NCBI GenBank assembly: GCA_019322435.1 | Contig: JAHWIR010000008.1 | Coordinates: 21,647 to 85,646 of the forward strand | Length of the DNA: 64,000 bases | Direction of reading: 5' to 3' | Origin: Candidatus Woesearchaeota archaeon | GTDB taxonomy: Archaea; Nanobdellota; Nanobdellia; Woesearchaeales; WJKL01 | Shown: positions 44,630 to 60,643 of the stretch, piece by piece | Position numbering within the stretch: position 1 is the first letter of the stretch | Layout: every line of letters begins with the position of its first letter | Made by a program: the position numbers and the translations under genes | Notes under the pieces: generated by a model | Database searches by the model: none | What the model was told of the DNA's origin: nothing | Seen by the model: only the letters and a program-made list of their open reading frames with translations

Positions 44630-45308
44630 TTTTTTTGCTTATTTATAAAGAGATTTTTGGCACAAATCTGCCTTTTTTTATGAAAAATTGAGTTTTATTT
44701 TGTTGATTTTTAGAGCAAATTATTAATTTAATAATAAAATAATAGCGAGAATATAGTTGTTTAGAAGCATAATTATTGTAATATATTATTACTATCAGAA
44801 TACTGATTTTGAAATTTGGTTTTTAGACGGAAGAAAAATCATTTAAAGACGACAAATTGGCAAAAGAGGCGAAAAAGTCACAAAAAACATGGTGTATACC
44901 AGTATACAAAAATCCACAACAACTTTGGGTTTTTGTTGTGAAAACAGTGTAGTTTTTGATTATCTATTTTAAAGTGACAACGTGCTAAAATGCTTGAATT
45001 TGCATAAAAGAGCTGGAAATGGGGGTTTTAAGGGTCAAATATGGGTCTGAGTTGCGAAAAATTTATAAAGAAAATAAGGTATATGATGCTCACCGGTTTA
45101 AAAAAGTCCAAGTTTTGTAGGCCAAAATCAGATGGTATGTACGAATATAGTACACTATATCGTGCATAATTAATGATTCTATAAGGACTTCTTGGACTTA
45201 AAGCGGGATCTTTCGGGATTTCGTGTTGCTGAAATAAGCAACGAAACAGATAGCCTAAAAAAAGATAGCCAAAGAAAACGAAAAAATAAACACGGAGGTG
45301 TTTAGTAT

Positions 45309-47681
45309 ATGAAAGCAATCAAAAAGATTGTGGCTCTTGCAACGGGCGCAACAATGCTCGGAGCAACAATTATGGGCGCAATGGCAGCGGATTTAGCTGA
45401 CTACCCAGCACCATTTGTAGAAGGATGTTCCTTCAGCGGTGCAATTGTAGTTGGTGAAAAAGCGGCTGCTGAAGACGTAGTTGGTGCAGTAGATATTGCA
45501 TCGGCACTTGCAGTGAGTGGTACAACCACAGCCACTACTGGAACTGGAACAATGGTTACTGTAAGTGGAGAAGCTTATAAAATAGAGAGAAGCACTAATA
45601 AGCTAAATCTTGGAGAAGATGTAGCAGATGTGGCTACAAAAGTAGATAGTGGAGATCTCCCAGTTGTTTTAGCAGATGGAACATTCACTAACGACGAAGG
45701 AAAAGACTTTGACTACGAACAAACAATAGATCTAACTAGTGCTACATTTACAGCAATAAGTGACAAAGATCTAAATGACAATGACCCAACAATTGGTGTT
45801 CAGTATGCTGATAGTGCTGGAGTGTTAGTATATGATCTAGAATTCACAACAGCTGCTGAAAGTGATGTAATTACAGATGATGGATTAGAAGACCTTGAAG
45901 ACACAACAATAGTGATGTTAGGCAATACTTATGATATTGTTGAAGCTACTAACGCAAGCGGCGGATACTTTGAAATCATGGGTGGAGCTACAAAAGATGT
46001 TATGGAACAAGGAGAAATAAAATCCTTTACAGTGAATGACAAAGAATATGAAGTTGAAGTAACTTATATTGGAGGCTTAGCTGTTTCAGAAGTTAAGATG
46101 AAAGTCAATGGTGAAGTTACAAAAGCTTTAGAAGAAGGCGACACTTATAAACTAGCAGACGGCACACAAGTTGGTATTAGAGAGATTCTAGAAGAGGAAG
46201 CAGGAGAAGTCACAGCTGACCAAGTAGAATTCTATATTGGAGCTGAAAAGATGACTCTTGAAGATGGTGGAGCAGAACTACAGTTAAATGATGAGGATGT
46301 AGATGACATCACTGTAGAAATTGACTCAACCCAAACAGGAGCCGAGTATGAGCTGAATGGAATAACTCTAACATGGACTGCAGATGATGAATTCTTTGTA
46401 ACAGAAGAAAGCTCTGCACTAATGCCTGGACTAGAAAGTGTAAAGCTTAGCTTTGAAGGATTGACAACACCAGCTGAAGAAATCATTGAAGTTAAAGTTG
46501 ATGGAGATGACACAATTGCATTGAAAGCACCTGTAAAAGGAGATGCAGATGGATTTGAATTTGCTGTGCTTTCTGACAGTGGAGTAGGTGCAGGGTTAGA
46601 TTTCCAAGGAGAAGACAATGAAAGTCAATTAGTAATAACACCTGCTGGAACTGCGGATATTGCATTTGATGGAGACACTGATGATATGATGGTTATCTCT
46701 AACAACGATAGTTATGAAACACACTTCTTGGAAGTAACTGGATATGATGATCCAGATGGTGCAGACTTTGAAGATGTTGTTACAGGAGCAGACTATCTAA
46801 AGAAAAAAGTTGGAGATACATTTGAAATTGCTGACATCACATTTAATGTGACTGCATTCGACAAAGCATTAAAAGAAGTGACTATAACAGCAATTACAAA
46901 TGCAGAAGATTTCCAAGGAGATGCTGTCTTTACACCAGAAGGATTGAAGATAACTCTGGCAACAGTTGCAACACCAACATTTACATTTGATGAAGAAGCA
47001 GACGATACTGACTTAGATAGAGCATCAATCTCATTTGATGTAGAGAGTGATGTACTCAATGGAACTGATGCCACTGTTGATAGTAGTACTATCGCAGGAA
47101 TTTCAGACATCCACGAAATAGGAGACACTGATATAGATGTGTACTATGCTTTGTTGGTTCCTGATGGTTCAGAAGTTGGTACAAGACTAGAGTTAGACAG
47201 AGGAGACACTGACCAGAAAACAGTTAAAATCTTCTATCCAGGTGGAGAAAGCTATGGTAACTTGTATTTAGCAGAAAGTGAAGCTGGATTTGGTACAGCA
47301 GCAGGTGTTAGTGGAGAAGCTGTATGTAAAGTATCTATTCCACCAGCAAAGCTTGACAGCGAAGTATCAAGTGTGAGCGCACAAAACCTAATAGTTGTAG
47401 GTGGACCATGTGCTAACACAGTTGCAGCTGAAGTCATGGGCGTTGCTTCAACAGTTCCTGAGTGTTTAGCAGGATTTGAAGAAGGCAAAGCTATGATTAA
47501 GTTGATGGATACAGGAGCTGGAAAGACTGCTATGCTAGTTGCAGGATACAGTGCAATGGACACTAGAAGAGCAACAAGAGTTGTTGCAAATGCTGGTGAC
47601 TATGACTTATCTGGCGACGAAGTGGAAGTTACTGGAACTACATTAACAGACATCTCAGTTAGTGCTGTTACAGCAGAATAA
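45309..47681 (+). CDS. S-layer-like surface protein (790 aa) with Methanococcales-type S-layer N- and C-terminal regions flanking a ~600-aa acidic insert
   Basis: A signal peptide is followed by ADLADYPAPFVEGCSFSGAIVVGEKAAAEDVVGAVDIASALA. The C-terminal VSAQNLIVVGGPCANTVAAE...DTRRATRVVANAGDYDLSGDEVEVTG segment is shared with two paralogues. A GGAGGTG Shine-Dalgarno lies 8 nt upstream, a long 5' intergenic region precedes the gene, and a hairpin plus T-tract follows it. Confidence 0.6.
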   Translation: MKAIKKIVALATGATMLGATIMGAMAADLADYPAPFVEGCSFSGAIVVGEKAAAEDVVGAVDIASALAVSGTTTATTGTGTMVTVSGEAYKIERSTNKLNLGEDVADVATKVDSGDLPVVLADGTFTNDEGKDFDYEQTIDLTSATFTAISDKDLNDNDPTIGVQYADSAGVLVYDLEFTTAAESDVITDDGLEDLEDTTIVMLGNTYDIVEATNASGGYFEIMGGATKDVMEQGEIKSFTVNDKEYEVEVTYIGGLAVSEVKMKVNGEVTKALEEGDTYKLADGTQVGIREILEEEAGEVTADQVEFYIGAEKMTLEDGGAELQLNDEDVDDITVEIDSTQTGAEYELNGITLTWTADDEFFVTEESSALMPGLESVKLSFEGLTTPAEEIIEVKVDGDDTIALKAPVKGDADGFEFAVLSDSGVGAGLDFQGEDNESQLVITPAGTADIAFDGDTDDMMVISNNDSYETHFLEVTGYDDPDGADFEDVVTGADYLKKKVGDTFEIADITFNVTAFDKALKEVTITAITNAEDFQGDAVFTPEGLKITLATVATPTFTFDEEADDTDLDRASISFDVESDVLNGTDATVDSSTIAGISDIHEIGDTDIDVYYALLVPDGSEVGTRLELDRGDTDQKTVKIFYPGGESYGNLYLAESEAGFGTAAGVSGEAVCKVSIPPAKLDSEVSSVSAQNLIVVGGPCANTVAAEVMGVASTVPECLAGFEEGKAMIKLMDTGAGKTAMLVAGYSAMDTRRATRVVANAGDYDLSGDEVEVTGTTLTDISVSAVTAE

Positions 47682-47683
47682 GG

Positions 47684-47715
47684 CTGAAAAGCCTTTTTTT
47701 CTTTCTTTTTTTTAT
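47684..47715 (+). terminator. Hairpin + T-tract terminator-like element
   Basis: GGCTGAAAAGCC is followed by TTTTTTTCTTTCTTTTTTTT. Confidence 0.4.
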
Positions 47716-47773
47716 TTTAATTCTTTAAAATTAACAAAAACTTTTTAAATTAGGTATTCTAAATCCCTAGTAT

Positions 47774-48301
47774 ATGGTAAATAAGGTATTTTTAGGCATT
47801 TTAGTGATGTTATTGCTAGTTTCACCTGTTCTAGCTGTTGATCTGAGTAATTTTCCAGGGGTTTTTCTGGATGAAGTCAGAGTAGTTGTTGGAAGGTCTG
47901 CAAAAGCAGAGGATGTGCTGGGAGCAATAGATATTGTGGCTGCATTGCAGCAGAGAGTAGGGACATGCAAAAGAGTTGGCGGAGCAGTATTAGATACTGA
48001 AGTAGAGTCCTTGGAATCAATGAATACTATAGTTGTTGGAGGGCCTTGCATTAATTCAGCTGCTGCCAGGTTATTAGGATATCCAGAGAACTGCTTAGAA
48101 GGATTTGAGATGGGAAAAGGCATAATAAGGATATATGAGTTTGATACTGGCAAATACGGGCTGTTGGCTGCTGGAACAACTGCATTAGACACAAGAAGAG
48201 TGACTAGTGTTCTTGCTAATTACAATGATTATGCTCTTAGTGGAGCAGAGATGATGGTGACTGGGCTTAGTATCAGTGATATAGAGATTGATTCTAAATA
48301 A
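47774..48301 (+). CDS. Small secreted protein (175 aa) consisting only of the shared S-layer terminal domain (N- and C-parts contiguous)
   Basis: A signal peptide is followed by DLSNFPGVFLDEVRVVVGRSAKAEDVLGAIDIVAAL...IVVGGPCINSAAARLLG...DTRRVTSVLANYNDYALSG. Confidence 0.55.
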   Translation: MVNKVFLGILVMLLLVSPVLAVDLSNFPGVFLDEVRVVVGRSAKAEDVLGAIDIVAALQQRVGTCKRVGGAVLDTEVESLESMNTIVVGGPCINSAAARLLGYPENCLEGFEMGKGIIRIYEFDTGKYGLLAAGTTALDTRRVTSVLANYNDYALSGAEMMVTGLSISDIEIDSK

Positions 48302-48464
48302 GTGCTGCAGCAAATATATTGTGTTTTTCTCTTATTATTTTTAGTTTTACAGTGGAATTTACAGCTGCATCGGAATTATAGACTGAGATAATTCTGTCTT
48401 TTGCTGTTGCAAGCATCTCATTGTATAATCTTCCAGGAGCAATGATTTTTGCCTTGATTGTATC

Positions 48465-49496
48465 TCATTTTCTGAATGGTTTTGGCAGTTTTTTTGTCTG
48501 TCTTATATTGAAGTCTTCTTTGAAATTGAAAAGAAGGTGTGCATTGTATTTTTCTTCTAAAGCTTTCATTTTATCTATAAATTCTTGCCAAGGCATCTGT
48601 TTTACTGGATTTCTGCCAAATTTATAGTTCAAAAAGTTCTGGATTCCTATTTTGCAGCTTAATTTCTTAGATAATTCTATCAGTTTTGAGATTTCTTTGT
48701 CATTTATACCTGGAATCCAGACAGGAGTTAGGATTAATTCAACATCTTGTTTTGAGATGTAATTAAGAATTTCTAGGATATAATCTAGATTATATGGTTT
48801 ATTTGCTATTTTTTTAGCTAATTTTTGGTCTAAAGCATTGATTGAAAAACAAAATCTTGTTAATCCTGCATTGATTAACTCATCAACTTTCTCTTTTGTT
48901 AGCAATGTTCCGTTTGTGTCTATAGCAATTGTAGAAACTTCTGGCATTGAAGAAAGGTCTTTTATTAGTTCTGCTAAAGGCTGATATAACAAAGGCTCGC
49001 CTTGTGTGCCAATATGGGCTTCTATTTCATTTATTTGCTTATGATTGAGCAGTTTTCTGAATTCTTGAATTAAATAGTCTTTTTCTACAACAAAATCAAC
49101 AGGTCTTTTGTCTTGGCTAACAGAACAATAGATACAATCGATATTGCAGCCTGTTATTGGCCTTACTTCAATTATTGATGTATTCCTGTCAATCAAGCCA
49201 AAAGCATTGTGGCCAATCAAAGGAATTCCTGAATTTTGATGGATATATATTGTTTTTTGTTTTGTTATTTTGTTTTTTAATGATCTGAATGCAGTTGAAA
49301 GCAAAAAATTGAATTTTTTATCTGCTTTTGCTCCAGAAACAGCTGGAAAACTTATTGAATTTTTAGTTATTGTGAATCTTCCAATGCTTTGTAAATCTTT
49401 TTTTGAAATCTCTGCAGAGAAAATTCTAAGGAAACTGATTTTTATCTTGTCTTTTTTATCTTCAAATGAGATATCTTTGAATTTTAATGATGCCAT
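48465..49496 (-). CDS. Radical SAM domain protein (canonical CX3CX2C)
   Basis: The canonical triad lies in ITGCNIDCIYCS at about residue 115. GTQGEPLL fits the SAM-binding 'GGEP' motif. Confidence 0.75.
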   Translation of the reverse strand: MASLKFKDISFEDKKDKIKISFLRIFSAEISKKDLQSIGRFTITKNSISFPAVSGAKADKKFNFLLSTAFRSLKNKITKQKTIYIHQNSGIPLIGHNAFGLIDRNTSIIEVRPITGCNIDCIYCSVSQDKRPVDFVVEKDYLIQEFRKLLNHKQINEIEAHIGTQGEPLLYQPLAELIKDLSSMPEVSTIAIDTNGTLLTKEKVDELINAGLTRFCFSINALDQKLAKKIANKPYNLDYILEILNYISKQDVELILTPVWIPGINDKEISKLIELSKKLSCKIGIQNFLNYKFGRNPVKQMPWQEFIDKMKALEEKYNAHLLFNFKEDFNIRQTKKLPKPFRK

Positions 49497-49566
49497 AGGG
49501 CTGTGAGGTAAACTAGTTTTAAAAAACTAACTGTTTCATTACATAAAAATTTAAATAGATAATTAA

Positions 49567-50208
49567 TTGTTGAATTCTGGGATGGGAGAAGAAATCAATA
49601 TCACTTATGAGACTTTGTTTGAGTTATTAAGACGGGAAAAGAACAGGGATGAGCTGCAGAGATTGGATGAGAAATTCTTTGCAGATGTTGCAGCTTATCT
49701 GAAAGGCAAAGAGGAAGTTCTAGAGCAGCTGAAAACAAAGCAGGACCTGTTTGTGAATGAGGAAAAAGAGAAGGCTGAGAAACAGATTGAGGATATAAGG
49801 GGGATTTTGAAGAGGCTTTATGAAAAAAGAGAGAAAAAGATCATTGAGATGGCGGTTGATGCGTCAAGGACTCCTTCTGTCATAATAGACAAATCAATAA
49901 TGCTTGATGAAGAGAAGATGCTTTATGAAAAGACCTTAAGATTACTGAACAGTTTTAGAGAGGGTATTTTGCTGAATATACAGCATGCCAGGCTGCCTGA
50001 GATTAAAGGGGTACAAGATATTGTGGATAAAGAGCCGGAAGTTGAAGAAAAACCAGAAGAGATATTCAGACCAATCATATTCACTCATGAAGTGCCAAGG
50101 TTTGTAGGCATTGATCTAAAAGAATACGGGCCTTTTGAAGTTGGAGAAAGTGCTGAGCTGCCTTATAAGATAGCTGATGTTCTTATTAATAAGGGAAGGG
50201 CAGAGTAG
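49567..50208 (+). CDS. GINS-like replication protein (Gins51/Gins15-type) - tentative
   Basis: The N-terminal helical A-domain (ITYETLFELLRREKNRDELQRLDEKFFADVAAYL) is followed by a C-terminal beta-rich domain. The 213-aa size fits the family. Confidence 0.45.
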   Translation: MLNSGMGEEINITYETLFELLRREKNRDELQRLDEKFFADVAAYLKGKEEVLEQLKTKQDLFVNEEKEKAEKQIEDIRGILKRLYEKREKKIIEMAVDASRTPSVIIDKSIMLDEEKMLYEKTLRLLNSFREGILLNIQHARLPEIKGVQDIVDKEPEVEEKPEEIFRPIIFTHEVPRFVGIDLKEYGPFEVGESAELPYKIADVLINKGRAE

Positions 50209-50246
50209 AAACCTTTTTAAACCACTTCTAATTTGCATATTCACAG

Positions 50247-50564
50247 ATGAAATTACCTAAAACAGTCAAAAGATACTGTCCTTATTGCAAGAAGCACACT
50301 GAACATAAGATAACTAACTCTAAGAAGAAAACTATGGGAAGTGTACACCCTATGAGTTATGGAAGCAAGAAAAGAGCTAAATTAAGAGGGGCTGCAAGAG
50401 GGCATGGAAATTTAGGAAGGTATTCAAAGCCAGCTATTTCAAAGTGGAAGATGACTGGGAAGAAGACAAGCAAGAAGCTGGATTTAAGATATCAGTGCAA
50501 GGAATGCAAGAAATCCCATGTTCAGAAGAAAGGGGTAAGAGCAAAGAGGGTTGAATTTAAATGA
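50247..50564 (+). CDS. rpl44e: 50S ribosomal protein L44e (eL42)
   Basis: [10 protein letters not shown]...KP...YQCKECKK Zn-ribbon. Confidence 0.9.
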
Positions 50565-50740
50565 AGAAAGAACCTACTAGCAAATTTGTAAAGATAAGAT
50601 GTCCTAAATGCAAGAATGAGCAGATCATATTTGGCAAATCAAGCAGCAATATCAAGTGTTTGGTGTGCGGAAAGATACTAGCAGAGCCTCAAGGAGGGAA
50701 AAGCAGGATAAAAGCAAGGATCCTGGAGGTTCTTGAGTAA
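50561..50740 (+). CDS. rps27e: 30S ribosomal protein S27e
   Basis: The ORF encodes [47 protein letters not shown]. Its ATG overlaps the rpl44e stop in an ATGA pattern. Confidence 0.85.
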
Positions 50741-51520
50741 ATGTTGTATAAAAAAGAAGGCATGCCTGAAGAAAACGAGATAGTTCTTTGTACTGTAACA
50801 AATGTTCAGCACCATTCTGTTTTTGCAAAACTTGATGAATACGGCAAATCTGGAATGATCCATATTTCTGAAGTAAGTCCTGGAAGGATCAGGAATTTGC
50901 GTGATTATGTCCAGGAAGGCAAGAAAGTCATCTGCAAGATTTTAAGAATAGATAGAGTTAAAGGGCATATTGACTTAAGCTTGAGAAGGGTCAGTGAAGG
51001 AAACAGAAGAAAGAAGAATGAAGCGATAAAGCAGGAGCAGAAAGCTGAGAAGATAATTGAGACTGTTGCAAAGAAAAGAGAAAAAACTCTTGAAGAATTG
51101 TATGAAGATGTAAGCAGCAAGGTATTTGAGAAATATGAATATATCTTCCAGTGTTTTAATGATATTGTTGAAAAAGATTATGACCTGAAGAAATTAGGGA
51201 TTGAGGCTGGGTTGGCTGATGAGCTGACAGCTGTTGTCAAGGAAAAGATAAAGCCAGTTGAAGTCTCTATCAGAGGGATATTGAATATCAGTTCTCAGGC
51301 TCCTGATGGAATTGAGGTTGTGAAGAAAACACTGCAGAGAGCCATTACAATTGGGAAAAATAATGTTGATATCAGTTATGCTGGAGCTGGAAAGTATAAT
51401 GTTGTTGTAAAAGCTCCTGATTACAAGACAGCTGAGAAGATTTTGACAAGCTCAACTGAATCTGCGATCAAGTTTGCAGAGAAGAATGAAGGAGAAGCCA
51501 GTTTTCTAAGAGCTGATTAA
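50741..51520 (+). CDS. eif2a: Translation initiation factor 2 alpha subunit (aIF-2alpha)
   Basis: The S1 domain has MIHISEVSPGRIRNLRDYV, and the protein has the eIF2alpha domain order. Confidence 0.9.
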   Translation: MLYKKEGMPEENEIVLCTVTNVQHHSVFAKLDEYGKSGMIHISEVSPGRIRNLRDYVQEGKKVICKILRIDRVKGHIDLSLRRVSEGNRRKKNEAIKQEQKAEKIIETVAKKREKTLEELYEDVSSKVFEKYEYIFQCFNDIVEKDYDLKKLGIEAGLADELTAVVKEKIKPVEVSIRGILNISSQAPDGIEVVKKTLQRAITIGKNNVDISYAGAGKYNVVVKAPDYKTAEKILTSSTESAIKFAEKNEGEASFLRAD

Positions 51521-52128
51521 TTCTTTCTATTTCTGAACCAGTCAATTAACAAGTATAAGACAATAGTGGAAGCTGCTCCTATAAAGAACCACAATGCGAT
51601 GTTTGAATATAATGGGAATTTATCAGCTACAACAGGGACTGTTTCAACTGCAGTAGAAGCTACTCCTGCTGCTGTATCAGCTGATTCTTCTGCAAGCATT
51701 CTTGGAGCTGCTTCTTGGACAGCTGCAAATTTTGCTGTTGTTTTTGTGAAATACTGGATAAAAGCAGTTCCTGCTGCTACAATCAAGGCAACTGGAAGCA
51801 CTGATTTCAGCTTTTCTTTTATTCCATAAGTTGATTTTGGAGCGATTATAATGTATTTATTAGCCAGTTTGTAGTGGTTGACTTCTTTTCCTTTTTCAGA
51901 ATAATGATATTCATCTGCAACAACTAAGTTGCCTTTTTGCAGTTGCTGGAGATTGTAATGTACTGTTGAAATAGGTATGTTTAATTTTTCTGAGAGTTCT
52001 GATTCTGTTGCTTCTTTGTCTGCTAAATAATCTAATATTTTTCTGCATGTTTCATTGGAAATAGCTTGAGCTAATTGTTTTGCTTTATTTTCACTTAATG
52101 AAACTAATAGGAATTTTTCCTTTGCCAT
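51517..52128 (-). CDS. ArsR-type wHTH transcriptional regulator with C-terminal TM segment(s)
   Basis: The HTH reads CRKILDYLADKEATESELSEKLNIPISTVHYNLQQL, and a hydrophobic C-terminus follows. Confidence 0.6.
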   Translation of the reverse strand: MAKEKFLLVSLSENKAKQLAQAISNETCRKILDYLADKEATESELSEKLNIPISTVHYNLQQLQKGNLVVADEYHYSEKGKEVNHYKLANKYIIIAPKSTYGIKEKLKSVLPVALIVAAGTAFIQYFTKTTAKFAAVQEAAPRMLAEESADTAAGVASTAVETVPVVADKFPLYSNIALWFFIGAASTIVLYLLIDWFRNRKN

Positions 52129-52225
52129 GTATTTGAAGAATACTTATATGTTTATAAAGGTTGCAGATAAGTTCAATTTGAGTTGAACCTAAAACTTTTT
52201 ATATAGAGTTGAGATTACAAAGAAA

Positions 52226-52387
52226 ATGAAGCACATTCTAAAGTGTGAGGAGTGCAACCAATATACAATGCAGGCAAAATGTCCTAAGTGCGGAGCTCCC
52301 ACGCAAAATCCGAAGCCTGCAAAATATGATCCTACTGACAGGATGGGAAAATACCGAAGAAAAGCCAAGGAGAAGATGGGAATATGA
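52226..52387 (+). CDS. nop10: H/ACA ribonucleoprotein subunit Nop10
   Basis: The ORF encodes MKHILKCEECNQYTMQAKCPKCGAPTQNPKPAKYDPTDRMGKYRRKAKE. It is below the ORF-track cut-off, and its stop overlaps the next start in an ATGA pattern. Confidence 0.8.
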   Translation: MKHILKCEECNQYTMQAKCPKCGAPTQNPKPAKYDPTDRMGKYRRKAKEKMGI

Positions 52388-53178: not shown

Positions 53179-53234
53179 TTCTGCACAACTAACAAAAAGG
53201 TTTATATAGATTATTTCTTAATTTAATAAAAAAG

Positions 53235-54071
53235 ATGGTGTTAGAAAGATTATATTCCTCTAAATGGATTGAGCAGAAAAGCAGGTATGCTTTTTTAATG
53301 GGGTTAAGTTATTCTATAATTGGGATTTTCTCTGCAATGTTTTTGTTTCCTAAGGATCCTGGATTGGTTGCAATTGCTTTTACTTCTTTATTGATACTGC
53401 CTAGTTTGAACAGCTTGTTGTCAGTAGAGGCAAATGAGGCTGCGAGGAGCAATAAGTTTGATATTATTGGATTGTTTAAGGACCATAATGATATCTTTAG
53501 AGTTTATTTGTTTTTGTTTTTAGGGATATTGCTGAGTTTTTCATTCTTTTCAGTTGTATGGCCTTCTATTGCTACAAGCCAGATATTTGCACAGCAGGTT
53601 AATGTTTTAGGATGGGCAACAGGAGAGGCTTATACCAAGGCAGGGTTGTTTGGAGGGCTGCTTACAAATAATCTTAAGGTTTTGGTGTTTTGCTTGCTTG
53701 CTTCTTTTATCTATGGAAGCGGAGCAATATTTATCATAACATGGAATGCTTCTGTATGGGGAACAATATTTGGGATAATTGCAAGGGACAGTGCTGCTGC
53801 TGTTGGGCAGAATCCTTTTGTTTATTTTGGGCTGACATTATTAGCAGTATTTCCTCATCTGATATTAGAAGCTAGCTCTTATTTCTTAGCTGCTATTTCT
53901 GGCGGTGTTGTAAGCAAAGCGGTTTTAAGAGAGAAACCTTTTTCAAAAAGGTTTTCACAGATAATAGAAGATGGATTAATGATGTTTGTTATTGCAATCA
54001 TTGTTTTGGTTATTGCTGTTTATATTGAAGCATATGTAACTGGTTCTATTGTTCGGTTTTTTGGGTTGTGA
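53235..54071 (+). CDS. SpoIIM/DUF95-family membrane protein
   Basis: The protein has multiple TM helices and a FPHLILEASSYFLAAISG segment. Confidence 0.55.
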   Translation: MVLERLYSSKWIEQKSRYAFLMGLSYSIIGIFSAMFLFPKDPGLVAIAFTSLLILPSLNSLLSVEANEAARSNKFDIIGLFKDHNDIFRVYLFLFLGILLSFSFFSVVWPSIATSQIFAQQVNVLGWATGEAYTKAGLFGGLLTNNLKVLVFCLLASFIYGSGAIFIITWNASVWGTIFGIIARDSAAAVGQNPFVYFGLTLLAVFPHLILEASSYFLAAISGGVVSKAVLREKPFSKRFSQIIEDGLMMFVIAIIVLVIAVYIEAYVTGSIVRFFGL

Positions 54072-54098
54072 TTCACGAAGGTTTTTAAAGTAAATAAT

Positions 54099-54992
54099 AT
54101 GTTTTTTTATATGAGATGGAGATATATTGCTTTGGGTTCATTAGTATTGGTCTTAGGAGGAGCGATTTATTTAGAAAATGTTCTAACTAAAAAAAGACTT
54201 GAGAGGCCTGTTGTTAAAGAGCATGGTATTGAGAAGATAATTAAAAAAACAACTATCTCTTTTGAAGAAGCTTGCAGGGATCATGCGAAAAGAGAGAAAT
54301 ATATTTTGGATATTAAAAATAAGATTTCTTTGCCTGAATTTGCTGATCTTGAATATGTGAGTAGAGGTAGATTAGAAGATATTCTGAAATATAATAAGGA
54401 AGCATTAAAGCAGGATGTTAAATTATCTGATAAACTAAACGCTATGACTGCACCTGGCGGCAAGAAGGTTAAAGATTTCTTTGCAAAAAAAATGCATCCA
54501 AAGATATTGGTGTTTTATCATGCTTTTGAAAGTGATAGTGTAAAGAATGAAGCTGATTTAAGAAGCGTTATAATTCAAGAAATAGATCATGCTAGATTTT
54601 ATCATGAAGGTGATGAAAGAATAGATAGTGATAAATTAAGAAAATATCTAAAACAGGATTATGATAGGAAGCCTAAGGATAAATTTGGCCACATAGTAAA
54701 TATTTTTATGGAATTAAGAGGAACTGAGATTCAAATGAAAAAGTTTACAAAGAAAAATTCTCAGAAGTATATGAACCATGTTCTTAATTATAATTTTGAA
54801 AATTATGTTGCATTATGGAGACATGATAAAAAACCCTTGGCTAATGATCTTAAGATGTTATTTTTCAGAAAATATATGTTAACATACCTTGGACAAGATG
54901 AAAAAGGATTTTACCTTGAACCTGTTGAAGAATTTAAACCAATAACAAAGAGACTGTATCTTCCTGAAGGAATTAAGATTGAATTTAAATAA
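54099..54992 (+). CDS. Hypothetical N-terminally anchored protein (297 aa)
   Basis: ORF with an N-terminal TM helix. Confidence 0.45.
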   Translation: MFFYMRWRYIALGSLVLVLGGAIYLENVLTKKRLERPVVKEHGIEKIIKKTTISFEEACRDHAKREKYILDIKNKISLPEFADLEYVSRGRLEDILKYNKEALKQDVKLSDKLNAMTAPGGKKVKDFFAKKMHPKILVFYHAFESDSVKNEADLRSVIIQEIDHARFYHEGDERIDSDKLRKYLKQDYDRKPKDKFGHIVNIFMELRGTEIQMKKFTKKNSQKYMNHVLNYNFENYVALWRHDKKPLANDLKMLFFRKYMLTYLGQDEKGFYLEPVEEFKPITKRLYLPEGIKIEFK

Positions 54993-55116
54993 AAACAATT
55001 ATACAATGTAAGCTGGTAATTGTGAGCGAGTTTATGAGCGCACTCGCAAGTCACTGCTTACAAGCATAAATATTTTGTTAAAACAAAATATTTATATAGT
55101 AGATTATTCTAAATTA

Positions 55117-55131
55117 TTCTGAATATCAGAA
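55117..55131. promoter_or_regulatory. Inverted repeat TTCTGA-N3-TCAGAA, candidate operator upstream of abrB-like gene
   Basis: The half-site TCAGAA recurs at 55183-55188, overlapping the start codon, and in inverted orientation near 55165. Confidence 0.25.
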
Positions 55132-55186
55132 ATATTGATATTTTGATTGATTAATTTACTTATTATCTGATATTCTTATTTTCAGA

Positions 55187-55345
55187 ATGAAGAACTTTAA
55201 AGTAGTACAAGCTGATAAAAGAGGACAGATAGTTATTCCTAAATCTATTAGAAAAGAACTTAAGATAGAGGAAGGTGCTGCATTCTGGATATATAAGACT
55301 GAGGAAGGCATTGTTCTGAAAAAGATTCAAGCTCCTAAAAGGTGA
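55187..55345 (+). CDS. AbrB/MazE/SpoVT-family (swapped-hairpin) small DNA-binding protein, 52 aa
   Basis: The ORF encodes MKNFKVVQADKRGQIVIPKSIRKELKIEEGAAFWIYKTEEGIVLKK. It is below the ORF-track cut-off and ends 5 nt before the giant protein's ATG. Confidence 0.65.
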   Translation: MKNFKVVQADKRGQIVIPKSIRKELKIEEGAAFWIYKTEEGIVLKKIQAPKR

Positions 55346-55350
55346 TACCC

Positions 55351-58300
55351 ATGGCAAAAAAGAAAAAAACTCCTAAAAAAGCTGCTAAAAAACATGTAAT
55401 TCCAAAAGATGTCAAAGGTTTTGTTTTAACTTTGTTGTTTGCAGTTATTGTACTTGTTTTAGTTGTTGGTGTAGTTAGATTAACCAGGCTGGGAGTTGTT
55501 GGAAAGGCATTTGAATATGAAGGAACAGAAGTTGATTTATCTGATTATCCTTATCCTTTTGTTGACGGGTGTGATTTTAATGGAGCTATTGTAGTTGGAG
55601 ATAATGCTCCTGCTGAAGATGTTACTGGTGCTACAGATATTTCTTCAACTCTGGCAGTGAGTGGAGAGATAGATGGTGAAGCTTGTAATGTTGACATGCC
55701 TCCTAATAAGCTGGCTTCTGAAGTAACAGATGTTTCTGCGCAGAATGTAATTTCAGTTGGAAATCCTTGCGATAATGCTATTTCAGGAGAATTGTGGGGG
55801 AATCCTATTGATTGTGATATGGGCTTAAGTGAAGGCCAGGCAAGGATTAAGATGTATAATCTAGGAGGAAATATTCAATTATTAGTTGCAGGGCCTACTA
55901 CTGAAGATACAAGAAGAGCAGCAAGAGTATTGTATAATTATACTGATTTTATTTTAAGCGGAGAAGAGGTTTGTGTTACTGGAACCACTTTAGATGATAT
56001 GGAAGTTAGTGCAGGGGCTTGTGTTGTGGGAGTAAATCCACTTTATTTAGCTGATGGCGAGATTACAGAAGGAATTTTAGTGGATAATTATGACGCAGGA
56101 TGGATAAGTTTGGAACCAGTAACCTCAAATTTAGGCAAGGGTCAAGCAGATTATGCTTATTTCAATGCTCAAGGGGATTTGGTAGGGCTTTTTAATATAA
56201 TTCCAGGTAAAAATTTAAGAGTGCGTACTTTTGAAGAAGAAAGTGAATTTGAAATAGATATAGTTGCTGATGGAAGATCTTTAAGGATATACATGCCTTC
56301 TTCTTCTGCAGAACTAATAAATGGAACAGTAGTTTATGTGGCTGATGATGGATCTACATATTATGATACTGATCTAACACAATCAGCAAGGATTGCTCCA
56401 AAACCAGAGTGCACAGATACTGATGGTGGAATGGACTATTATACAAAAGGCACTTGTGTAGATTCTAATGCATATCCAACTGGCGCAACTGACCATTGTC
56501 AGGTAGATGAGGGAGTAATGCATCTATATGAGATGTATTGTCATTCAGAGTATGAATGCCATAGTGCTGAAGGTTATGAATGTCCAAATGGCTGTGCAGA
56601 TGGTGCTTGTATACCTACAAATGTGGAAGATTGTACTACAGTGCCTTTCCAAGATGCAGACAGGGATGGGTGTCATGCAGGACTTGATTCTGATTGTGGA
56701 GGAATAGAAGGAGTTAATGATCCATCACCAGAAATAACTTGTTTTGATGGTATAGATAATGATTGCGATGGAATGATTGATGGAGATGATGATGATTTAA
56801 GTTGTCAAAAAGAATGCACAGATTCTGATGATGGAAGACAGTACTATAAAGAAGGAAGCATATTTGGATGTTTAGGGACTGGATGTACTGTTCCTGTTGT
56901 AGACAGCTGTGTTGATGGAGTTATTTTAGAAGAAGGGTATTGTGACAAGGAAACAATGAAGTTTGAAGAATATAGCTGTCCAAATGGTTGTGAAGGCACT
57001 GCTTGTGTTTCTGATTTTGCAGTTAATGGCTGCAAAGCAATAGAGTTGAATACAAATGTTGTTGATGGACAAATCTTTTTTGATGTATTAGCAGGAAATG
57101 GAACAGAGTTTACTCAGTTTGGTGAAGCAGATACAACTGATCATATTCCAATGAGTGATGATGAAAATCCAACATTTGTATATGACGCGGATTTGCATGG
57201 GTTGTTTATTGTATCAGATGTATTAGCTAAGAATACTTATTTTATGGAAGTTACTAGAATTAATAATGAAGATGGAATTGATTTCAAAAATGTTGTTACA
57301 GGACTGGTGTGGGATGATGTAAAAGCAGGAGATATATTTAGTGTTGGAGAAAGTATAGTAGAAGTTATTGATTATGATGCTTCTATTGAAAATAGTGTAA
57401 CAATAAAATTATATGATGCTTATATGAACAGAGTTTATACAGCAGATGGAAGAGAGATTTTGCTGACTGCTGGCGGATCCTTACCTAATGAAATATATAA
57501 GATGTGGGTGAATGAGGCAGATGGTGGCCAAACAGTATATTACTTTGAATGGGAAGATGGTTGTGCTGTTATTGAAAATATTGTGAGTGTTCCAGTGCCT
57601 ATTGAAGAATGCACAGATACTGACGGCGGAAGAAATTATTATGAAGCAGGAAGTGTATATACTTGTGCAGGAGATTTATGTGTTATTCCTGTTGCAGACA
57701 GCTGTATAGATGGATTTACTTTACAAGAAGGATTTTGTGATAAGGAAACAATGCAGTTTGAAGAACATACTTGTCCAAACGGCTGTGAAAATGGTGCTTG
57801 TGTTGGGGAATGCACAGATTCTGATGGCGGGTTAAATTATTATGGAAGAGGAACTGTGCATGGCTTAGAATTGCCAGATGTCTGGGATACATGGACTGAT
57901 TACTGCGGTGAGGCAGGTGAAGAAGAAGGCAAGCTTGTAGAGTATGTATGCAGAACAGACGATTATGGAGAAAAAGTTCTTTATGAATGCCCTCAAGGCT
58001 GTGAATATGGTGCCTGTATTGATCCTGAATGTTACGTGACAGGCACATTAGAACAAGGAGAAACTGCAATATATATTATAGGAGAAAAGGAATATGAAGT
58101 TGAAGCAACATTTATTGGTGAAGTAGAAGTTGTTACAATAGCTAAACTTAAAATTAATGGAGAGGTTACAAAAGCATTAGAAGAAGGTGAGTCTTATATA
58201 TTAAATGATGGAACTGAGATTAAGATTCTGACATTAATTGAAAATGATATCCCTCTAATGGATGTAGTGACTTTTTGTTTTATGAAGGCAGAAGGAATTT

Positions 58301-59040
58301 GCACAGATACTGATGATGGAAAGGATTACTATAAAAAAGGAGAGTTTAGTGGTTTTTGGCAAGGGGAATTAATAACAAATACAGATTCTTGTGTAGATGC
58401 TCTTGATGAAACTGGAGATGATGTTTATTCAAGTGATTATTTAGGAGAAGGGTATTGCGAAAATGGAGAACTAAAAGTAGAAAGAATTGTTTGCGAATAC
58501 GGCTGTGAAGATGGCGCTTGCATTATATCTCCAGAACCGCAGGAATTTACAGTTGAGCTTGATGAAGAATGGAATCTTATTTCACTTCCATTGGTATTAG
58601 AAGACAGGGCTGTGGAAGCTGTATTTTCAGGAATAGAGGGTAATGTTAGGGTAGTTTATGCTTATGATCCTTTAGAAGAATGGAAGGTGTGGTATCCTGA
58701 TCCAGATGTGCCAAGCAATCTGGAAACAATAGATCCAGGAAAGGGCTATTGGATTTATATGAAAGAAGAAGATAAACTGACTGTTGAAGGGACAGTGGGA
58801 GAAGGAGATCCTCCAAAACCACCAAGGATTGATGTAAAACCTGGCTGGAATTTGATTGGAGTTCATTCAATAGCACCAAGGCAGATATCTAGTGCGCTTG
58901 CGAGTATTGAAGGAAAGTACATCTCATTATGGGGCTATGGTGTGGAATTGATAAAGTTGGATATAGAGGCTAATCCATACCTAGAGCCAGGAAAGGGGTA
59001 TTGGATTTATATAACTGAAGAAGGAGAGATAATACCATGA
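55351..59040 (+). CDS. Giant (1229 aa) membrane-anchored surface protein with S-layer terminal domain, five Cys-rich CTD(T/S)DGG..YY repeats, a MopE-like metal-binding motif and twin C-terminal 'PGKGYWIY' modules
   Basis: The start is at the ATG after a GGTGA Shine-Dalgarno; the ORF track's GTG lies 9 nt upstream. A Lys-rich N-terminus and a TM helix precede the domains. See findings for the repeat listing. Confidence 0.7.
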   Translation: MAKKKKTPKKAAKKHVIPKDVKGFVLTLLFAVIVLVLVVGVVRLTRLGVVGKAFEYEGTEVDLSDYPYPFVDGCDFNGAIVVGDNAPAEDVTGATDISSTLAVSGEIDGEACNVDMPPNKLASEVTDVSAQNVISVGNPCDNAISGELWGNPIDCDMGLSEGQARIKMYNLGGNIQLLVAGPTTEDTRRAARVLYNYTDFILSGEEVCVTGTTLDDMEVSAGACVVGVNPLYLADGEITEGILVDNYDAGWISLEPVTSNLGKGQADYAYFNAQGDLVGLFNIIPGKNLRVRTFEEESEFEIDIVADGRSLRIYMPSSSAELINGTVVYVADDGSTYYDTDLTQSARIAPKPECTDTDGGMDYYTKGTCVDSNAYPTGATDHCQVDEGVMHLYEMYCHSEYECHSAEGYECPNGCADGACIPTNVEDCTTVPFQDADRDGCHAGLDSDCGGIEGVNDPSPEITCFDGIDNDCDGMIDGDDDDLSCQKECTDSDDGRQYYKEGSIFGCLGTGCTVPVVDSCVDGVILEEGYCDKETMKFEEYSCPNGCEGTACVSDFAVNGCKAIELNTNVVDGQIFFDVLAGNGTEFTQFGEADTTDHIPMSDDENPTFVYDADLHGLFIVSDVLAKNTYFMEVTRINNEDGIDFKNVVTGLVWDDVKAGDIFSVGESIVEVIDYDASIENSVTIKLYDAYMNRVYTADGREILLTAGGSLPNEIYKMWVNEADGGQTVYYFEWEDGCAVIENIVSVPVPIEECTDTDGGRNYYEAGSVYTCAGDLCVIPVADSCIDGFTLQEGFCDKETMQFEEHTCPNGCENGACVGECTDSDGGLNYYGRGTVHGLELPDVWDTWTDYCGEAGEEEGKLVEYVCRTDDYGEKVLYECPQGCEYGACIDPECYVTGTLEQGETAIYIIGEKEYEVEATFIGEVEVVTIAKLKINGEVTKALEEGESYILNDGTEIKILTLIENDIPLMDVVTFCFMKAEGICTDTDDGKDYYKKGEFSGFWQGELITNTDSCVDALDETGDDVYSSDYLGEGYCENGELKVERIVCEYGCEDGACIISPEPQEFTVELDEEWNLISLPLVLEDRAVEAVFSGIEGNVRVVYAYDPLEEWKVWYPDPDVPSNLETIDPGKGYWIYMKEEDKLTVEGTVGEGDPPKPPRIDVKPGWNLIGVHSIAPRQISSALASIEGKYISLWGYGVELIKLDIEANPYLEPGKGYWIYITEEGEIIP

Positions 59041-59903
59041 AGAAATTAGTTTTACTTTTAATTTTTGTATTTATTGGAACAGTTTATGCCCAGCCGCAGT
59101 TTCCAATACAGATTTATGGAGATATAACTCCTGCAATATCAGATGGTTCTGAGATTCGTTTTGAAGTAGATGGATTAGAGGTTGGCTCTGGAGAAATAAT
59201 GGATAATAAATATGGTGATCCTCCTTTATTTATTGAAGTAGATGATACAGCAACAATTGAAAAAGAAGGATATGCTGATGGAGATGTTGTTGATGTTTAT
59301 ATAGAAGATGTCAAGGTAGATGAAATAACTTTAGAAGGAAATCTTGTTGAAAAAGACATAACCATCTCTGGTGATGATTTTGATGAAGTACAAAAGGAGA
59401 CAACCACTGCTGATACTAGAAGAGGAAGTGTTGGAACTAGTATAGCATGTGATCCAAGCTGGGAATGCAGTGATTGGGAAGAATGTATAAATGGAAAGCA
59501 AACAAGAACTTGTATTGATAAATGGGAATGCGGAACTGATGATGGAAAACCTGCTGAGATTCAAACCTGCATTGAACCTGCTGCAGCAGAGCCTAAAATA
59601 ATTCCATCTATAGAAGAACCCCTAGTGATTGAAGAAAAAGGTAGGGCCTGGATTTATATCATAATAACCATAATTGTGTTGGGATTAGCAGGAGGATTAG
59701 GATTTGTAATCTATGAAAGAGAAAGAGCTCATAAATCATTACAGCAAGAAAAACAACAGCCCAAGTTAGAAGATCAATCATTTATTAGGCTGCAAAGCTA
59801 TGTAAAACAAACTTTAGATCAAGGTTATACCCGAGAACAAATTAGGGCTGTGCTTTTAAGAGAAGGATGGTCTCAAAGTGTAATAAACAAGGCATTAAAA
59901 TGA
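59037..59903 (+). CDS. Secreted single-pass membrane protein with Cys-rich CxxWxCxxWxxC...C.D.W.CG module and cytoplasmic 'GW' tail
   Basis: A signal peptide is followed by ACDPSWECSDWEECINGKQTRTCIDKWECGTDDGKP and a TM helix. The tail reads [25 protein letters not shown]. The start ATG overlaps the upstream stop in an ATGA pattern. Confidence 0.55.
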   Translation: MKKLVLLLIFVFIGTVYAQPQFPIQIYGDITPAISDGSEIRFEVDGLEVGSGEIMDNKYGDPPLFIEVDDTATIEKEGYADGDVVDVYIEDVKVDEITLEGNLVEKDITISGDDFDEVQKETTTADTRRGSVGTSIACDPSWECSDWEECINGKQTRTCIDKWECGTDDGKPAEIQTCIEPAAAEPKIIPSIEEPLVIEEKGRAWIYIIITIIVLGLAGGLGFVIYERERAHKSLQQEKQQPKLEDQSFIRLQSYVKQTLDQGYTREQIRAVLLREGWSQSVINKALK

Positions 59904-60643
59904 AAAAAATAATCAAAAATGTGGATTTGGCAGTAAGTTCATCAGTACTGTATATCTTGCTAGTAGGGGCTATACTTGTGTTTGCAATGGGCTATGATCC
60001 CTGGGAAAGCAATGATCTGGTTGGAAAGGCTGCTTATACCCCTGTGCAGGTGTATGGAACAATATTTCCTGACCTTCCTGATGAGACTGATATCAGCTTT
60101 AGGATTAATGGAATTACTATTGCTTCTACAACATTGAAGAACAATTCATATGGCTATGATCCAGAAGTGTATTTTGAAATGGATAATCCTATAACCTCAA
60201 AGATAGAGGGCTATGCAGAAGGATATATTGTAGGAGTCTATATTGAAGGGGTACAAGTTGCTGAATTCTCTTATTTTGACCCGTGGGCTACTGAAAAAAA
60301 TATCAATGTTCCTGCAAGCATAAGAGAAGAAGTGGCTACCAAGGCTGCACAGTCTGATATAGAAAGAGAATGTGCTGCTAATTGGCAATGTGAAGGCTGG
60401 GATGCCTGCATAAGCGGAATCCAGAAAAGAAACTGTATTGACTTGAACGGATGCGGATATGACTGGGACAAGCCTGATGAGGAAAGGGGGTGTACTGTGT
60501 CTCCTACTTTAGAGGCTGCTTTGGCAACTGCAAGCAATATGTTCTCATTTGAAGTCATTGTTTTGATATCACTGATGGTGCTGCTGATTGCATATGTGAT
60601 AATCCTATTGGTTAGAGGCAGAGGCTTAGAACCTGAAAAATGA
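59900..60643 (+). CDS. Paralogue of preceding Cys-rich single-pass membrane protein
   Basis: [36 protein letters not shown] is followed by a C-terminal TM helix. The start ATG overlaps the upstream stop. Confidence 0.55.

What the first reader, a model, noticed from the sequence alone, without database searches (positions are those of the whole stretch)
45309..60643. Surface-protein locus built around a shared, splittable S-layer terminal domain
Three proteins share the same ~150-aa domain. They are the 790-aa protein (45309-47681), the 175-aa protein (47774-48301) and the N-terminus of the giant protein (~55500-56030). The shared signature is DLS(D/N)YP.PFV...F.GAIVVG..A.AEDV.GA.DI..L ... 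SAQN.I.VGGPC.N..A..... C..GF/L.EG.A.I........LVAG....DTRRA.RVL.NY.D..LSGEE V.VTG. In the 175-aa protein the domain is contiguous. In the 790-aa protein its two halves are separated by a ~600-aa acidic insert. In the giant protein it is contiguous and followed by ~1000 aa of Cys-rich repeats. The N-half (GAIVVG.KAAAEDVVGA.DIA) resembles what I recall of the Methanococcales S-layer N-region, so the family may be an S-layer scaffold that tolerates very large insertions. The 790-aa and giant proteins also share an internal module (EYEVE.T.IG....K.K.NGEVTKALEEG..Y.L.DGT). The coexistence of a domain-only 'minimal' version with two decorated versions suggests a modular cell-envelope system rather than a single S-layer gene.
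Basis: partly seen in the sequence, partly recalled or inferred. Interest (0 to 1): 0.75.

Follow-up and report, generated by a model that had tools for sequence, protein, structure and literature searches.

The report
Woesearchaeal S-layer gene plus anchor-domain paralogues
The 790-aa protein is the ordinary, already annotated S-layer protein of a Woesearchaeota archaeon, with its known two-piece "anchor" domain; what is less ordinary is that the same domain also exists as a conserved free-standing 175-aa secreted protein next door and as the head of a one-off giant surface protein.

Summary
Three proteins (790, 175 and 1232 aa) share one ~155-aa alpha/beta domain, Pfam PF05124. It is contiguous in two of them and interrupted by a ~590-aa beta-rich insert in the 790-aa protein.

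The split is not new. The 790-aa protein is the S-layer protein of a Candidatus Woesearchaeota archaeon, and NCBI already names it so. Its N and C pieces fold into the same domain as PDB 9FSA. That entry is the Methanococcus voltae S-layer "anchor" dimerisation domain, which crystallographers built in 2024 by joining residues 24-75 and 484-576 with a linker.

The 175-aa protein is a natural counterpart of that construct. It is not a pseudogene:
- It belongs to a conserved family under purifying selection (dN/dS 0.14-0.28).
- It has a signal peptide and a likely promoter of its own.
- It lies directly downstream of the S-layer gene in 16 of 26 cases.

The giant protein is a singleton mosaic that reuses the domain and two S-layer insert modules.

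The "locus" is not one unit. About 6.5 kb of housekeeping genes lie between the S-layer pair and the giant gene, and syntenic giant genes in relatives lack the domain.

The most likely role is a shared docking and dimerisation module at the membrane-facing side of the S-layer. This role is inferred, not shown. Verdict: a new variant of a known kind, of moderate interest.

The parts
45309..47681 (+). p790, the S-layer protein (790 aa): signal peptide, terminal domain in two pieces, beta-rich insert
   Evidence: NCBI name 'S-layer protein'; 253+ homologues of 780-920 aa. PF05124 64.7 bits. TIGR01564 25.8 bits against a cut-off of 25. AF2 model pLDDT 86.4. Preceded by a GGAGGTG ribosome-binding site.
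45387..45524 (+). N piece of the terminal (anchor/'outer') domain, p790 residues 27-72 (strand plus helix)
   Evidence: Aligns to p175 20-58 and p1232 65-110. The AF2 low-confidence linker at residues 73-78 marks the junction.
45543..47303 (+). Inserted all-beta region, p790 residues 79-665: acidic, the fastest-evolving part, presumed lattice canopy
   Evidence: AF2 secondary structure is all strands. Mean pairwise identity 0.30 against 0.53 for the terminal domain. No PF05123 hit. No confident PDB match.
47322..47678 (+). C piece of the terminal domain, p790 residues 672-790
47682..47720 (+). Hairpin (ggctgaaaagcc) followed by a long T-run: probable terminator of the S-layer transcript
   Evidence: Read directly from the sequence. 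Its function is inferred.
47741..47752 (+). A/T-rich TATA-like box ~25 nt upstream of the p175 start codon: probable separate promoter
   Evidence: Read directly from the sequence. Inferred, not tested.
47774..48301 (+). p175: signal peptide plus one uninterrupted copy of the domain; the 'minimal' paralogue
   Evidence: 59 homologues of 165-188 aa, down to 44% identity. AF2 pLDDT 86.5, pTM 0.81. Top PDB hit 9FSA. dN/dS 0.14-0.28. S-layer gene directly upstream in 16 of 26 cases.
55187..55345 (+). 52-aa MazE/AbrB-type (SpoVT) ORF whose stop overlaps the GTG start of the giant gene
   Evidence: PF04014 34.7 bits. The same pairing occurs upstream of unrelated giant surface proteins in L001 and L003-L005.
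55342..59040 (+). p1232, a giant mosaic surface protein
   Evidence: No full-length homologue apart from itself. 52 Cys, five C[TS]D[ST]D[DG]G repeats, and an N-terminal hydrophobic segment at residues 19-57.
55531..56016 (+). Uninterrupted copy of the domain in p1232 (residues 64-225), directly after the membrane/signal segment
   Evidence: PF05124 37.6 bits. 55% identical to the spliced p790 domain against 40% to p175. In the tree it nests within the S-layer clade beside this genome's own p790.
57079..57474 (+). S-layer-derived module B' (p1232 residues 580-711, matching p790 ~418-552)
   Evidence: phmmer E 5e-8 to 6e-9; S-layer family profile E 7e-15.
58045..58254 (+).
   Evidence: 52% identity, E 6e-16. 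Family profile E 7e-19. The order of A and B is reversed relative to p790.
59037..60643 (+). Two overlapping paralogous genes (288 and 258 aa): small membrane proteins with a 6-Cys motif and a C-terminal TM helix; they do not carry the S-layer domain
   Evidence: 33% identity, E 5e-34. No PF05124 hit. TM segments. The start overlaps the p1232 stop codon.

Best explanation
p790 is the main S-layer protein of this Woesearchaeon. It has a nested architecture: a ~155-aa flavodoxin-like alpha/beta domain is made from its first ~50 and last ~120 mature residues, and a ~590-aa all-beta region is inserted into one loop of that domain. The M. voltae homologue (PDB 9FSA) is described as the dimerising 'cell wall anchoring' domain at the lattice two-fold axis. 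By homology, the terminal domain here is taken to be the membrane-facing, dimerising foot of the S-layer, and the insert to be the canopy.

p175 is an old paralogue that consists of the foot domain only. It is secreted through a Sec signal peptide and is probably transcribed from its own promoter just downstream of the S-layer gene. p1232 carries the same domain right after an N-terminal membrane or signal segment, together with two modules copied from the S-layer insert.

The proposed mechanism is that the domain is a shared docking module. Through the same interface that pairs S-layer subunits, p175 and p1232 would bind the feet of S-layer subunits, or the ligand those feet bind. p175 would then act as a sub-stoichiometric cap or spacer. 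p1232 would be plugged into, or would tether, the lattice.

Shown: the homology, the fold, the nested architecture, the conservation, the selection and the gene adjacency. Inferred: the dimerisation, the orientation relative to the membrane, and every interaction among the three proteins.
For: Homology and Pfam membership of all three proteins.

Fold:
- The p175 model has 9FSA as top PDB hit: E 3.7e-6, TM 0.67 normalised on the target, 27% identity.
- The low-pLDDT linkers in p790 fall exactly at residues 73-78 and 666-671.

S-layer identity of p790: the NCBI name, hundreds of orthologues, and S-layer genes among the top-expressed Woesearchaeota genes in situ (PMC11606122).

p175 is functional:
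- 59 close homologues, and 79 minimal-type proteins among those fetched.
- dN/dS 0.14-0.28.
- 26 positions are conserved at 85% or more in both families and kept in p1232. They include the N-terminal DLxx[FY]P motif, GGPCxN, a second Cys and the DT motif.

Linkage of p175 to the S-layer gene:
- The S-layer gene lies directly upstream in 16 of 26 cases, including divergent genomes that have lost the other neighbours.
- p175 is more similar to its own genome's S-layer domain than to those of other genomes: 0.439 against 0.401, permutation P below 1e-4.

Modularity of the domain: 3356 cluster representatives and several architectures.
Against:
- Only 14 of 66 assessable S-layer genes have the small gene downstream, so it is not an obligatory partner, at least not in cis.
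- The small protein evolves faster than the S-layer terminal domain (0.42 against 0.53 mean identity).
- The own-genome similarity excess could come from gene conversion or shared composition rather than from co-evolving interfaces.
- p1232 is a singleton, and its N-terminal segment could be a cleaved signal peptide rather than a membrane anchor.
- The membrane-proximal orientation of the domain comes from a predicted lattice model, not from imaging. Pfam labels the domain 'outer domain'.
- The dimer-interface residues of 9FSA could not be mapped onto p175.
Confidence: 0.55

Rival explanations
1. The domain is an envelope-ligand-binding module (membrane lipid, glycan or another cell-surface polymer) rather than a protein-protein docking module. 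On this view p175, p790 and p1232 each bind the same ligand independently, and p175 is simply a small soluble or peripheral envelope protein with no direct contact to the S-layer protein.
For: - The PDB entry title calls it a 'cell wall anchoring domain'.
- None of p790, p175 or their consensus sequences has a TM helix, lipobox or C-terminal sorting signal, so some other means of attachment is needed.
- Most S-layer genes lack an adjacent small gene.
Against: - Woesearchaeota have no known wall polymer (own knowledge).
- The crystallised homologue was designed and interpreted as the two-fold dimerisation unit.
- The structural similarity to the glycosidase N-domains is at 8-15% identity and concerns a generic alpha/beta fold.
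- This view does not explain why p1232 also copies two S-layer insert modules.
Confidence: 0.25
2. p175 is an export or assembly chaperone, or a lattice-edge cap. It would transiently occupy the dimer interface of newly secreted S-layer subunits to prevent premature or misplaced polymerisation, and would not be a stable envelope component.
For: It has the same fold and the same conserved positions as the S-layer foot. It has its own promoter after an S-layer terminator-like element, which suggests lower expression. It is tightly adjacent to the S-layer gene.
Against: There is no precedent for this in this S-layer family in the papers read. The gene is absent next to most S-layer genes. With the present data this view cannot be told apart from the main explanation.
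Confidence: 0.12
3. One reading: 45309-60643 is one coherent multi-component cell-envelope locus, whose three domain-bearing proteins were selected to work together.
For: All three proteins carry the domain and lie within 15 kb on one strand. The head of p1232 is closest to this genome's own S-layer protein.
Against: - About 6.5 kb of conserved housekeeping genes lie in between.
- That block is syntenic in relatives, where the downstream giant proteins (PKD/Big_9/cadherin or FG-GAP types) lack the domain.
- p1232 has no orthologue.
Confidence: 0.06
4. p175 is a pseudogene fragment or a mis-called ORF derived from the neighbouring S-layer gene.
For: It lies directly downstream of the S-layer gene and is homologous to the ends of that gene.
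Against: - It belongs to a conserved family with an intact signal peptide and 21 invariant columns.
- dN/dS is 0.14-0.28.
- The small proteins form a single clade in the NJ domain tree, although bootstrap support is only 46/100.
- Truncating the neighbour cannot produce a joined N+C domain. That would need a precise in-frame excision of the insert.
- The gene is also found away from any S-layer gene (L003, L010, L015).
Confidence: 0.02

Closest known systems
Methanococcus voltae S-layer protein (UniProt Q50833) and its 'anchor' domain, PDB 9FSA; more broadly the Methanococcales/Thermococcales S-layer proteins (Pfam PF05123 + PF05124, NCBIfam TIGR01564); SymProFold paper, PMC11410804
   Different: - The insert is longer here (~590 aa against ~410 aa) and does not match PF05123.
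- The DPANN domain has two conserved Cys that M. voltae lacks, as seen in the alignment.
- In Methanococcus the contiguous domain exists only as a laboratory construct. Here it is a natural, conserved gene (p175) and also a head piece on other proteins.
MSTP-like beta-sandwich S-layer class of class I methanogens and DPANN, including Nanoarchaeota (Johnston et al., bioRxiv 10.1101/2024.05.28.596244)
   Same: That study already predicts S-layer proteins and lattices for Nanoarchaeota and calls them orthologous to those of class I methanogens. It lists 'co-expressed accessory proteins' among archaeal anchoring modes.
   Different: The text I could read mentions neither a stand-alone foot-domain paralogue nor reuse of the domain on giant proteins. 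My fold searches did not return an MSTP structure for the insert, so membership of the insert in that fold class is untested here.
Bacterial shared-anchor families: SLH-domain proteins of Bacillus and other Firmicutes, and the CWB2 cell-wall-protein family of Clostridioides difficile (own knowledge, not tested here)
   Same: The logic is the same. One anchoring module is shared by the main S-layer protein and by many accessory surface proteins, which lets them co-localise in the same layer.
   Different: The folds are unrelated and the ligands differ (secondary cell-wall polymers). Those anchors are terminal and contiguous, never split by the lattice domains.
Flavodoxin-like domains of the cellulose-synthase subunit BcsB (for example PDB 7L2Z, 6YG8)
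   Different: 15-19% identity and no sequence-level relationship detected. A fold resemblance only.

Membership tests
Pfam PF05124 (S_layer_C, 'S-layer like family, outer domain') | Whole-protein score at or above the gathering cut-off of 23.9 bits | tested here: met
   p790 64.7 bits, p1232 37.6 bits, p175 30.6 bits. All listed homologues of p175 and nearly all of p790 carry precomputed PF05124.
NCBIfam TIGR01564 (S_layer_MJ, Methanococcales-type S-layer protein) | Whole-protein score at or above the cut-off of 25 bits, ideally over the full 571-position model | tested here: inconclusive
   p790 scores 25.8 bits, just above the cut-off, but only model positions 485-565 align. p175 (18.3) and p1232 (19.4) are below the cut-off.
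Methanococcales/Thermococcales-type S-layer protein | N- and C-terminal segments fold into one domain of the 9FSA type | tested here: met
Methanococcales/Thermococcales-type S-layer protein | Central region matches Pfam PF05123 (S_layer_N) | tested here: not met
   No PF05123 hit at E up to 1 for p790.
Methanococcales/Thermococcales-type S-layer protein | The terminal domain homodimerises at the lattice two-fold axis | not testable with these tools
   Only monomer prediction is available. Known for M. voltae from the crystal structure and lattice model.
S-layer protein in general | Secreted: N-terminal signal peptide | tested here: met
   A hydrophobic N-terminal segment followed by an A-x-A-type site directly before the conserved DLxx[FY]P motif, in p790 and in the whole p175 family. 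This is a sequence-based inference; no dedicated signal-peptide predictor was run.
S-layer protein in general | Abundant protein that self-assembles into a 2-D lattice on the cell | not testable with these tools
   Indirect support only: a strong ribosome-binding site, and S-layer genes among the top-10 expressed Woesearchaeota genes in a metatranscriptome (PMC11606122).
MSTP-like beta-sandwich S-layer class (Johnston et al. 2024) | Lattice region made of MSTP/DUF1608-like beta-sandwich domains | tested here: inconclusive

The most novel reading that the evidence does not exclude
The free-standing 175-aa foot domain is a genuine second subunit of the Woesearchaeal S-layer. It would heterodimerise with the foot of the main S-layer protein at two-fold positions. 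The same domain would then act as a general 'plug' by which these host-dependent DPANN cells insert large, fast-evolving adhesin-like proteins such as p1232 into the lattice, or tether the lattice to the membrane. This would be an archaeal, protein-protein analogue of the bacterial SLH/CWB2 shared-anchor systems.
Probability: 0.25. Interest if true: 0.65.

Novelty: new variant of a known kind. Interest (0 to 1): 0.4.

Why it matters
How S-layers of the Methanococcales, Thermococcales and DPANN type are held to the cell is not settled. The main protein has no membrane anchor, and the 'dimeric anchor' was recognised only in 2024.

A natural, conserved, separately encoded copy of that anchor domain offers a ready-made probe for what the foot binds. 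So do larger proteins that carry the domain next to a membrane segment, or in tandem. If the domain is a docking tag, it would explain how symbiotic DPANN cells display large variable surface proteins through an otherwise closed lattice.

The practical gain is small but real. p175-type proteins are soluble, ~155-aa natural versions of a construct that had to be engineered for crystallography.

Tried and rejected
1. Junction duplication. p790 85-111 looked like a repeat of 666-692, which would hint at how the insert arose. A profile-profile comparison gave P 0.52, no better than 20 control segments. Rejected.

2. Pseudogene origin of p175. Rejected on family conservation and dN/dS.

3. Conserved orthologues of the giant protein. 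None were found: the best partial hits cover 5-17% of the query, and one at 26% identity covers 58%.

4. Whether giant proteins at the syntenic site in relatives carry the domain. They do not.

5. Radical-SAM neighbour as a maturase of p175. It matches only generic radical-SAM cores, far below every family cut-off, and no SPASM domain was seen. No support.

8. A full-text search for 'PF05124' found no paper.

9. RNA gene in the long leader of the S-layer gene. None was found there, but a nearby intron-containing tRNA was.


Full report
**What is there.**

The window is archaeal: it has a split rpoB, rpoA'/A'', and ribosomal proteins S8e and L44e. Exact protein matches place it in a Candidatus Woesearchaeota archaeon MAG, on a 91,420-bp contig with locus tags KY332_02845 and KY332_02905.

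Pairwise BLASTP shows one shared domain of about 155 aa:
- p175 matches the C-terminal 113 residues of p790 at 49% identity (E 1e-29), and the N-terminal 43 residues at 44% (E 1e-7).
- p175 matches p1232 residues 64-222 at 39% (E 2e-27).
- p790 and p1232 match over both pieces at 49-52%.

Pfam PF05124 ('S-layer like family, outer domain', 177 positions) exceeds its gathering score in all three. In p790 one envelope runs from residue 28 to residue 758 while covering profile positions 1-172, so the Pfam model itself represents the joined domain. A profile built from the three copies finds no fourth copy in the window.

**Structure.**

An AlphaFold2 model of p175 was built on 27 family members. 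It is confident (pLDDT 86.5, pTM 0.81) and shows an alpha/beta fold.

A model of p790 built on 50 homologues is also confident (pLDDT 86.4). Apart from the signal peptide, its only low-confidence stretches are residues 73-78 and 666-671. These are the two junctions between the terminal pieces and an all-beta region at residues 79-665.

**What is already known.**

9FSA comes from the SymProFold paper (PMC11410804). It is the Methanococcus voltae S-layer protein, residues 24-75 and 484-576, joined artificially by a GGS linker. [quoted passage not shown] They state that a dimeric anchor of this kind is predicted for M. voltae, M. vannielii, Pyrococcus and Thermococcus S-layers and 'has not been described previously'.

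A 2024 preprint (10.1101/2024.05.28.596244) already predicts S-layer lattices for Nanoarchaeota and other DPANN phyla, and regards them as orthologous to those of class I methanogens.

NCBI already names p790 'S-layer protein'. It has more than 250 homologues of 780-920 aa in Woesearchaeota and Nanoarchaeota. S-layer genes are among the ten most expressed Woesearchaeota genes in a lake metatranscriptome (PMC11606122).

The split terminal domain and the S-layer identity of p790 are therefore known biology. One difference from Methanococcales is that the insert here does not match Pfam PF05123. TIGR01564 is passed only marginally, and only over the C-terminal ~80 residues.

**The 175-aa protein.**

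The 175-aa protein is the less ordinary part.
- It has 59 close homologues of 165-188 aa, down to 44% identity, and all carry PF05124.
- The alignment has 21 invariant columns and a conserved signal peptide that ends just before a DLxx[FY]P motif.
- dN/dS against three relatives is 0.14-0.28.
- In a tree of spliced S-layer domains and small proteins, the 27 small proteins form one clade, though bootstrap support is only 46/100.
- A hairpin plus T-run follows the p790 stop codon, and a TATA-like box precedes the p175 start. This suggests separate transcription (inferred).

Across 85 related loci, 26 small genes were found. Sixteen have an S-layer-type gene directly upstream on the same strand, with a gap of -1 to 240 nt. 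These include divergent genomes that have lost the otherwise conserved convergent radical-SAM neighbour. Conversely, only 14 of 66 assessable S-layer genes have a small gene downstream.

In 11 genomes that carry the pair, mean pairwise identity is 0.53 for the S-layer terminal domain, 0.42 for the small protein and 0.30 for the insert. The small protein is more similar to its own genome's S-layer domain than to those of other genomes (0.439 against 0.401, permutation P below 1e-4). That fits co-evolution or gene conversion but proves neither.

Twenty-six positions are conserved in both families and kept in p1232, including GGPCxN and a second Cys.

**The domain as a module.**

A profile of the contiguous domain finds 3356 cluster representatives at E up to 0.001 among 1.84 billion proteins, and 482 at E up to 1e-30.

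| Architecture | Proteins |
|---|---|
| Split into N and C pieces | 191 |
| Minimal, one whole copy | 79 |
| Two or more whole copies | 15 |
| One whole copy at the N-terminus of a larger protein | 4 |
| One whole copy inside a larger protein | 8 |
| One whole copy at the C-terminus of a larger protein | 6 called by the script; only P0283 lacks a separate N piece |
| Partial copy only | 13 |

The multi-copy class includes ~400-aa tandem pairs and a 1779-aa protein with three copies.

In 62 split genes from species-representative genomes the insert is 503-851 aa (median 623). It always sits at the same place in the profile: the N piece ends at median position 72 and the C piece starts at median position 69.

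**The giant protein.**

p1232 has no full-length relative among 5.8 billion clusters. It is built as follows:
- a basic N-terminus and a hydrophobic segment at residues 19-57;
- the domain at residues 64-225;
- five Cys-rich repeats of about 65 aa;
- two modules homologous to conserved parts of the S-layer insert, in reversed order (p790 231-298 matches p1232 902-971, and p790 ~418-552 matches p1232 580-711);
- two C-terminal beta repeats.

Its domain is 55% identical to this genome's own p790 domain, against 40% to p175, and it nests within the S-layer clade. p1232 is therefore a recent, lineage-specific mosaic made partly from S-layer gene material.

Giant genes at the same syntenic position in relatives are PKD/Big_9/cadherin or FG-GAP proteins without the domain. 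They share only the small MazE/AbrB-type upstream ORF.

The ~6.5 kb between p175 and the MazE-type ORF upstream of p1232 holds a conserved housekeeping block. The two genes at 59037-60643 are paralogous small membrane proteins without the domain.

**Mechanism.**

I consider it most likely (0.55) that the domain is the membrane-facing, dimerising foot of the S-layer, and that p175 and p1232 use it to associate with that layer. p175 would be a cap, spacer or minor subunit. p1232 would be a docked or tethering giant protein.

The homology, fold, nested architecture, selection and adjacency are shown. The dimerisation, the orientation and all interactions are inferred from the M. voltae work.

The main rival (0.25) is that the domain binds an envelope ligand rather than another copy of itself. 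This is suggested by the PDB title 'cell wall anchoring domain' and by the structural neighbours BcsB and glycosidase N-domains. A transient chaperone or cap role (0.12) cannot be told apart from the main explanation with present data. The single-locus reading (0.06) and the pseudogene reading (0.02) are essentially refuted.

**Verdict.**

The S-layer gene and its split domain are already known. The conserved stand-alone foot-domain gene and the reuse of the domain on other surface proteins form a new variant of a known kind, of moderate interest (0.4).

The decisive tests are multimer prediction or binding assays of p175 and the p1232 head with the joined p790 foot, and envelope proteomics.

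Noticed in passing
window 44527-44629 (+): An intron-containing class II tRNA with a long variable arm and an insert of about 20 nt in the anticodon loop, probably tRNA-Leu(UAG). It scores 43.9 bits for Rfam RF00005 in a focused search. ARAGORN missed it, and so did the whole-window Rfam run at gathering threshold. The segment is conserved, up to 100% over 33 nt, near S-layer genes in dozens of related loci and in either orientation.
   Followed up: partly
window 44630-45308 (+), upstream of the S-layer gene: About 680 nt with no convincing ORF lie between the tRNA and the S-layer start codon. Positions 44673-45307 are 81% identical to L006 and 68% to L001, which is high for non-coding DNA at this divergence. 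This may be a long leader or promoter region of the S-layer gene. No Rfam family matches. Two small unlisted genes sit just upstream: an LSM protein at 44021-44251 and ribosomal protein L37e at 44262-44426.
   Followed up: partly
window 55187-55345 (+); L001 16477-16674; L003 12025-12219; L005 8803-8994: A 52-65-aa MazE/AbrB (SpoVT) type ORF directly precedes, and overlaps the start of, a giant surface-protein gene in every related genome examined, even though the giant proteins themselves are unrelated. It could be a conserved small regulator of variable giant surface genes.
   Followed up: partly
window 59037-59903 and 59867-60643 (+): Two paralogous membrane proteins (33% identity, E 5e-34). 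Each has an N-terminal hydrophobic segment, a beta domain, a CxxxWxCxxWxxCxxGxQxRxCxDxxxCG motif and a C-terminal TM helix. The first overlaps the stop codon of the giant gene, so they are probably co-transcribed with it. No family match.
   Followed up: partly
window 48465-49496 (-): A radical-SAM gene lies convergent with the small S-layer-domain gene in 18 of 25 assessable loci, often with 3' ends that overlap by 1-5 nt. It matches only generic radical-SAM cores, far below every NCBIfam cut-off, so its function is unknown.
   Followed up: partly
proteins P0181-P0183, P0186-P0188, P0190 (~380-420 aa), P0180 (1779 aa), P0184 (2624 aa), P0192 (736 aa): Other architectures of the same domain in metagenomes: tandem pairs of whole copies, three whole copies inside a 1779-aa protein, and a protein (P0192, Nanoarchaeota) with two copies, each interrupted by a short insert of ~50-85 aa at the same site.
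   Followed up: partly
window 21658-23481 (-) and 23544-24716 (-): A 607-aa secreted, C-terminally anchored protein with GEVED and DUF7467 domains. Next to it is a 390-aa protein with four repeats of a basic 'KGW..H..DAL.RY' motif. A similar motif ends the cytoplasmic tail of the 288-aa protein at 59037-59903.
   Followed up: no
loci L008, L013, L016, L018 and many others: Many genome records that carry Woesearchaeota-type S-layer and small-protein genes are titled 'uncultured Methanosarcinales archaeon' (TPA 'binchicken' assemblies), and one is titled 'Candidatus Binatia bacterium'. Given the gene content, these record titles look unreliable as taxonomy.
   Followed up: no
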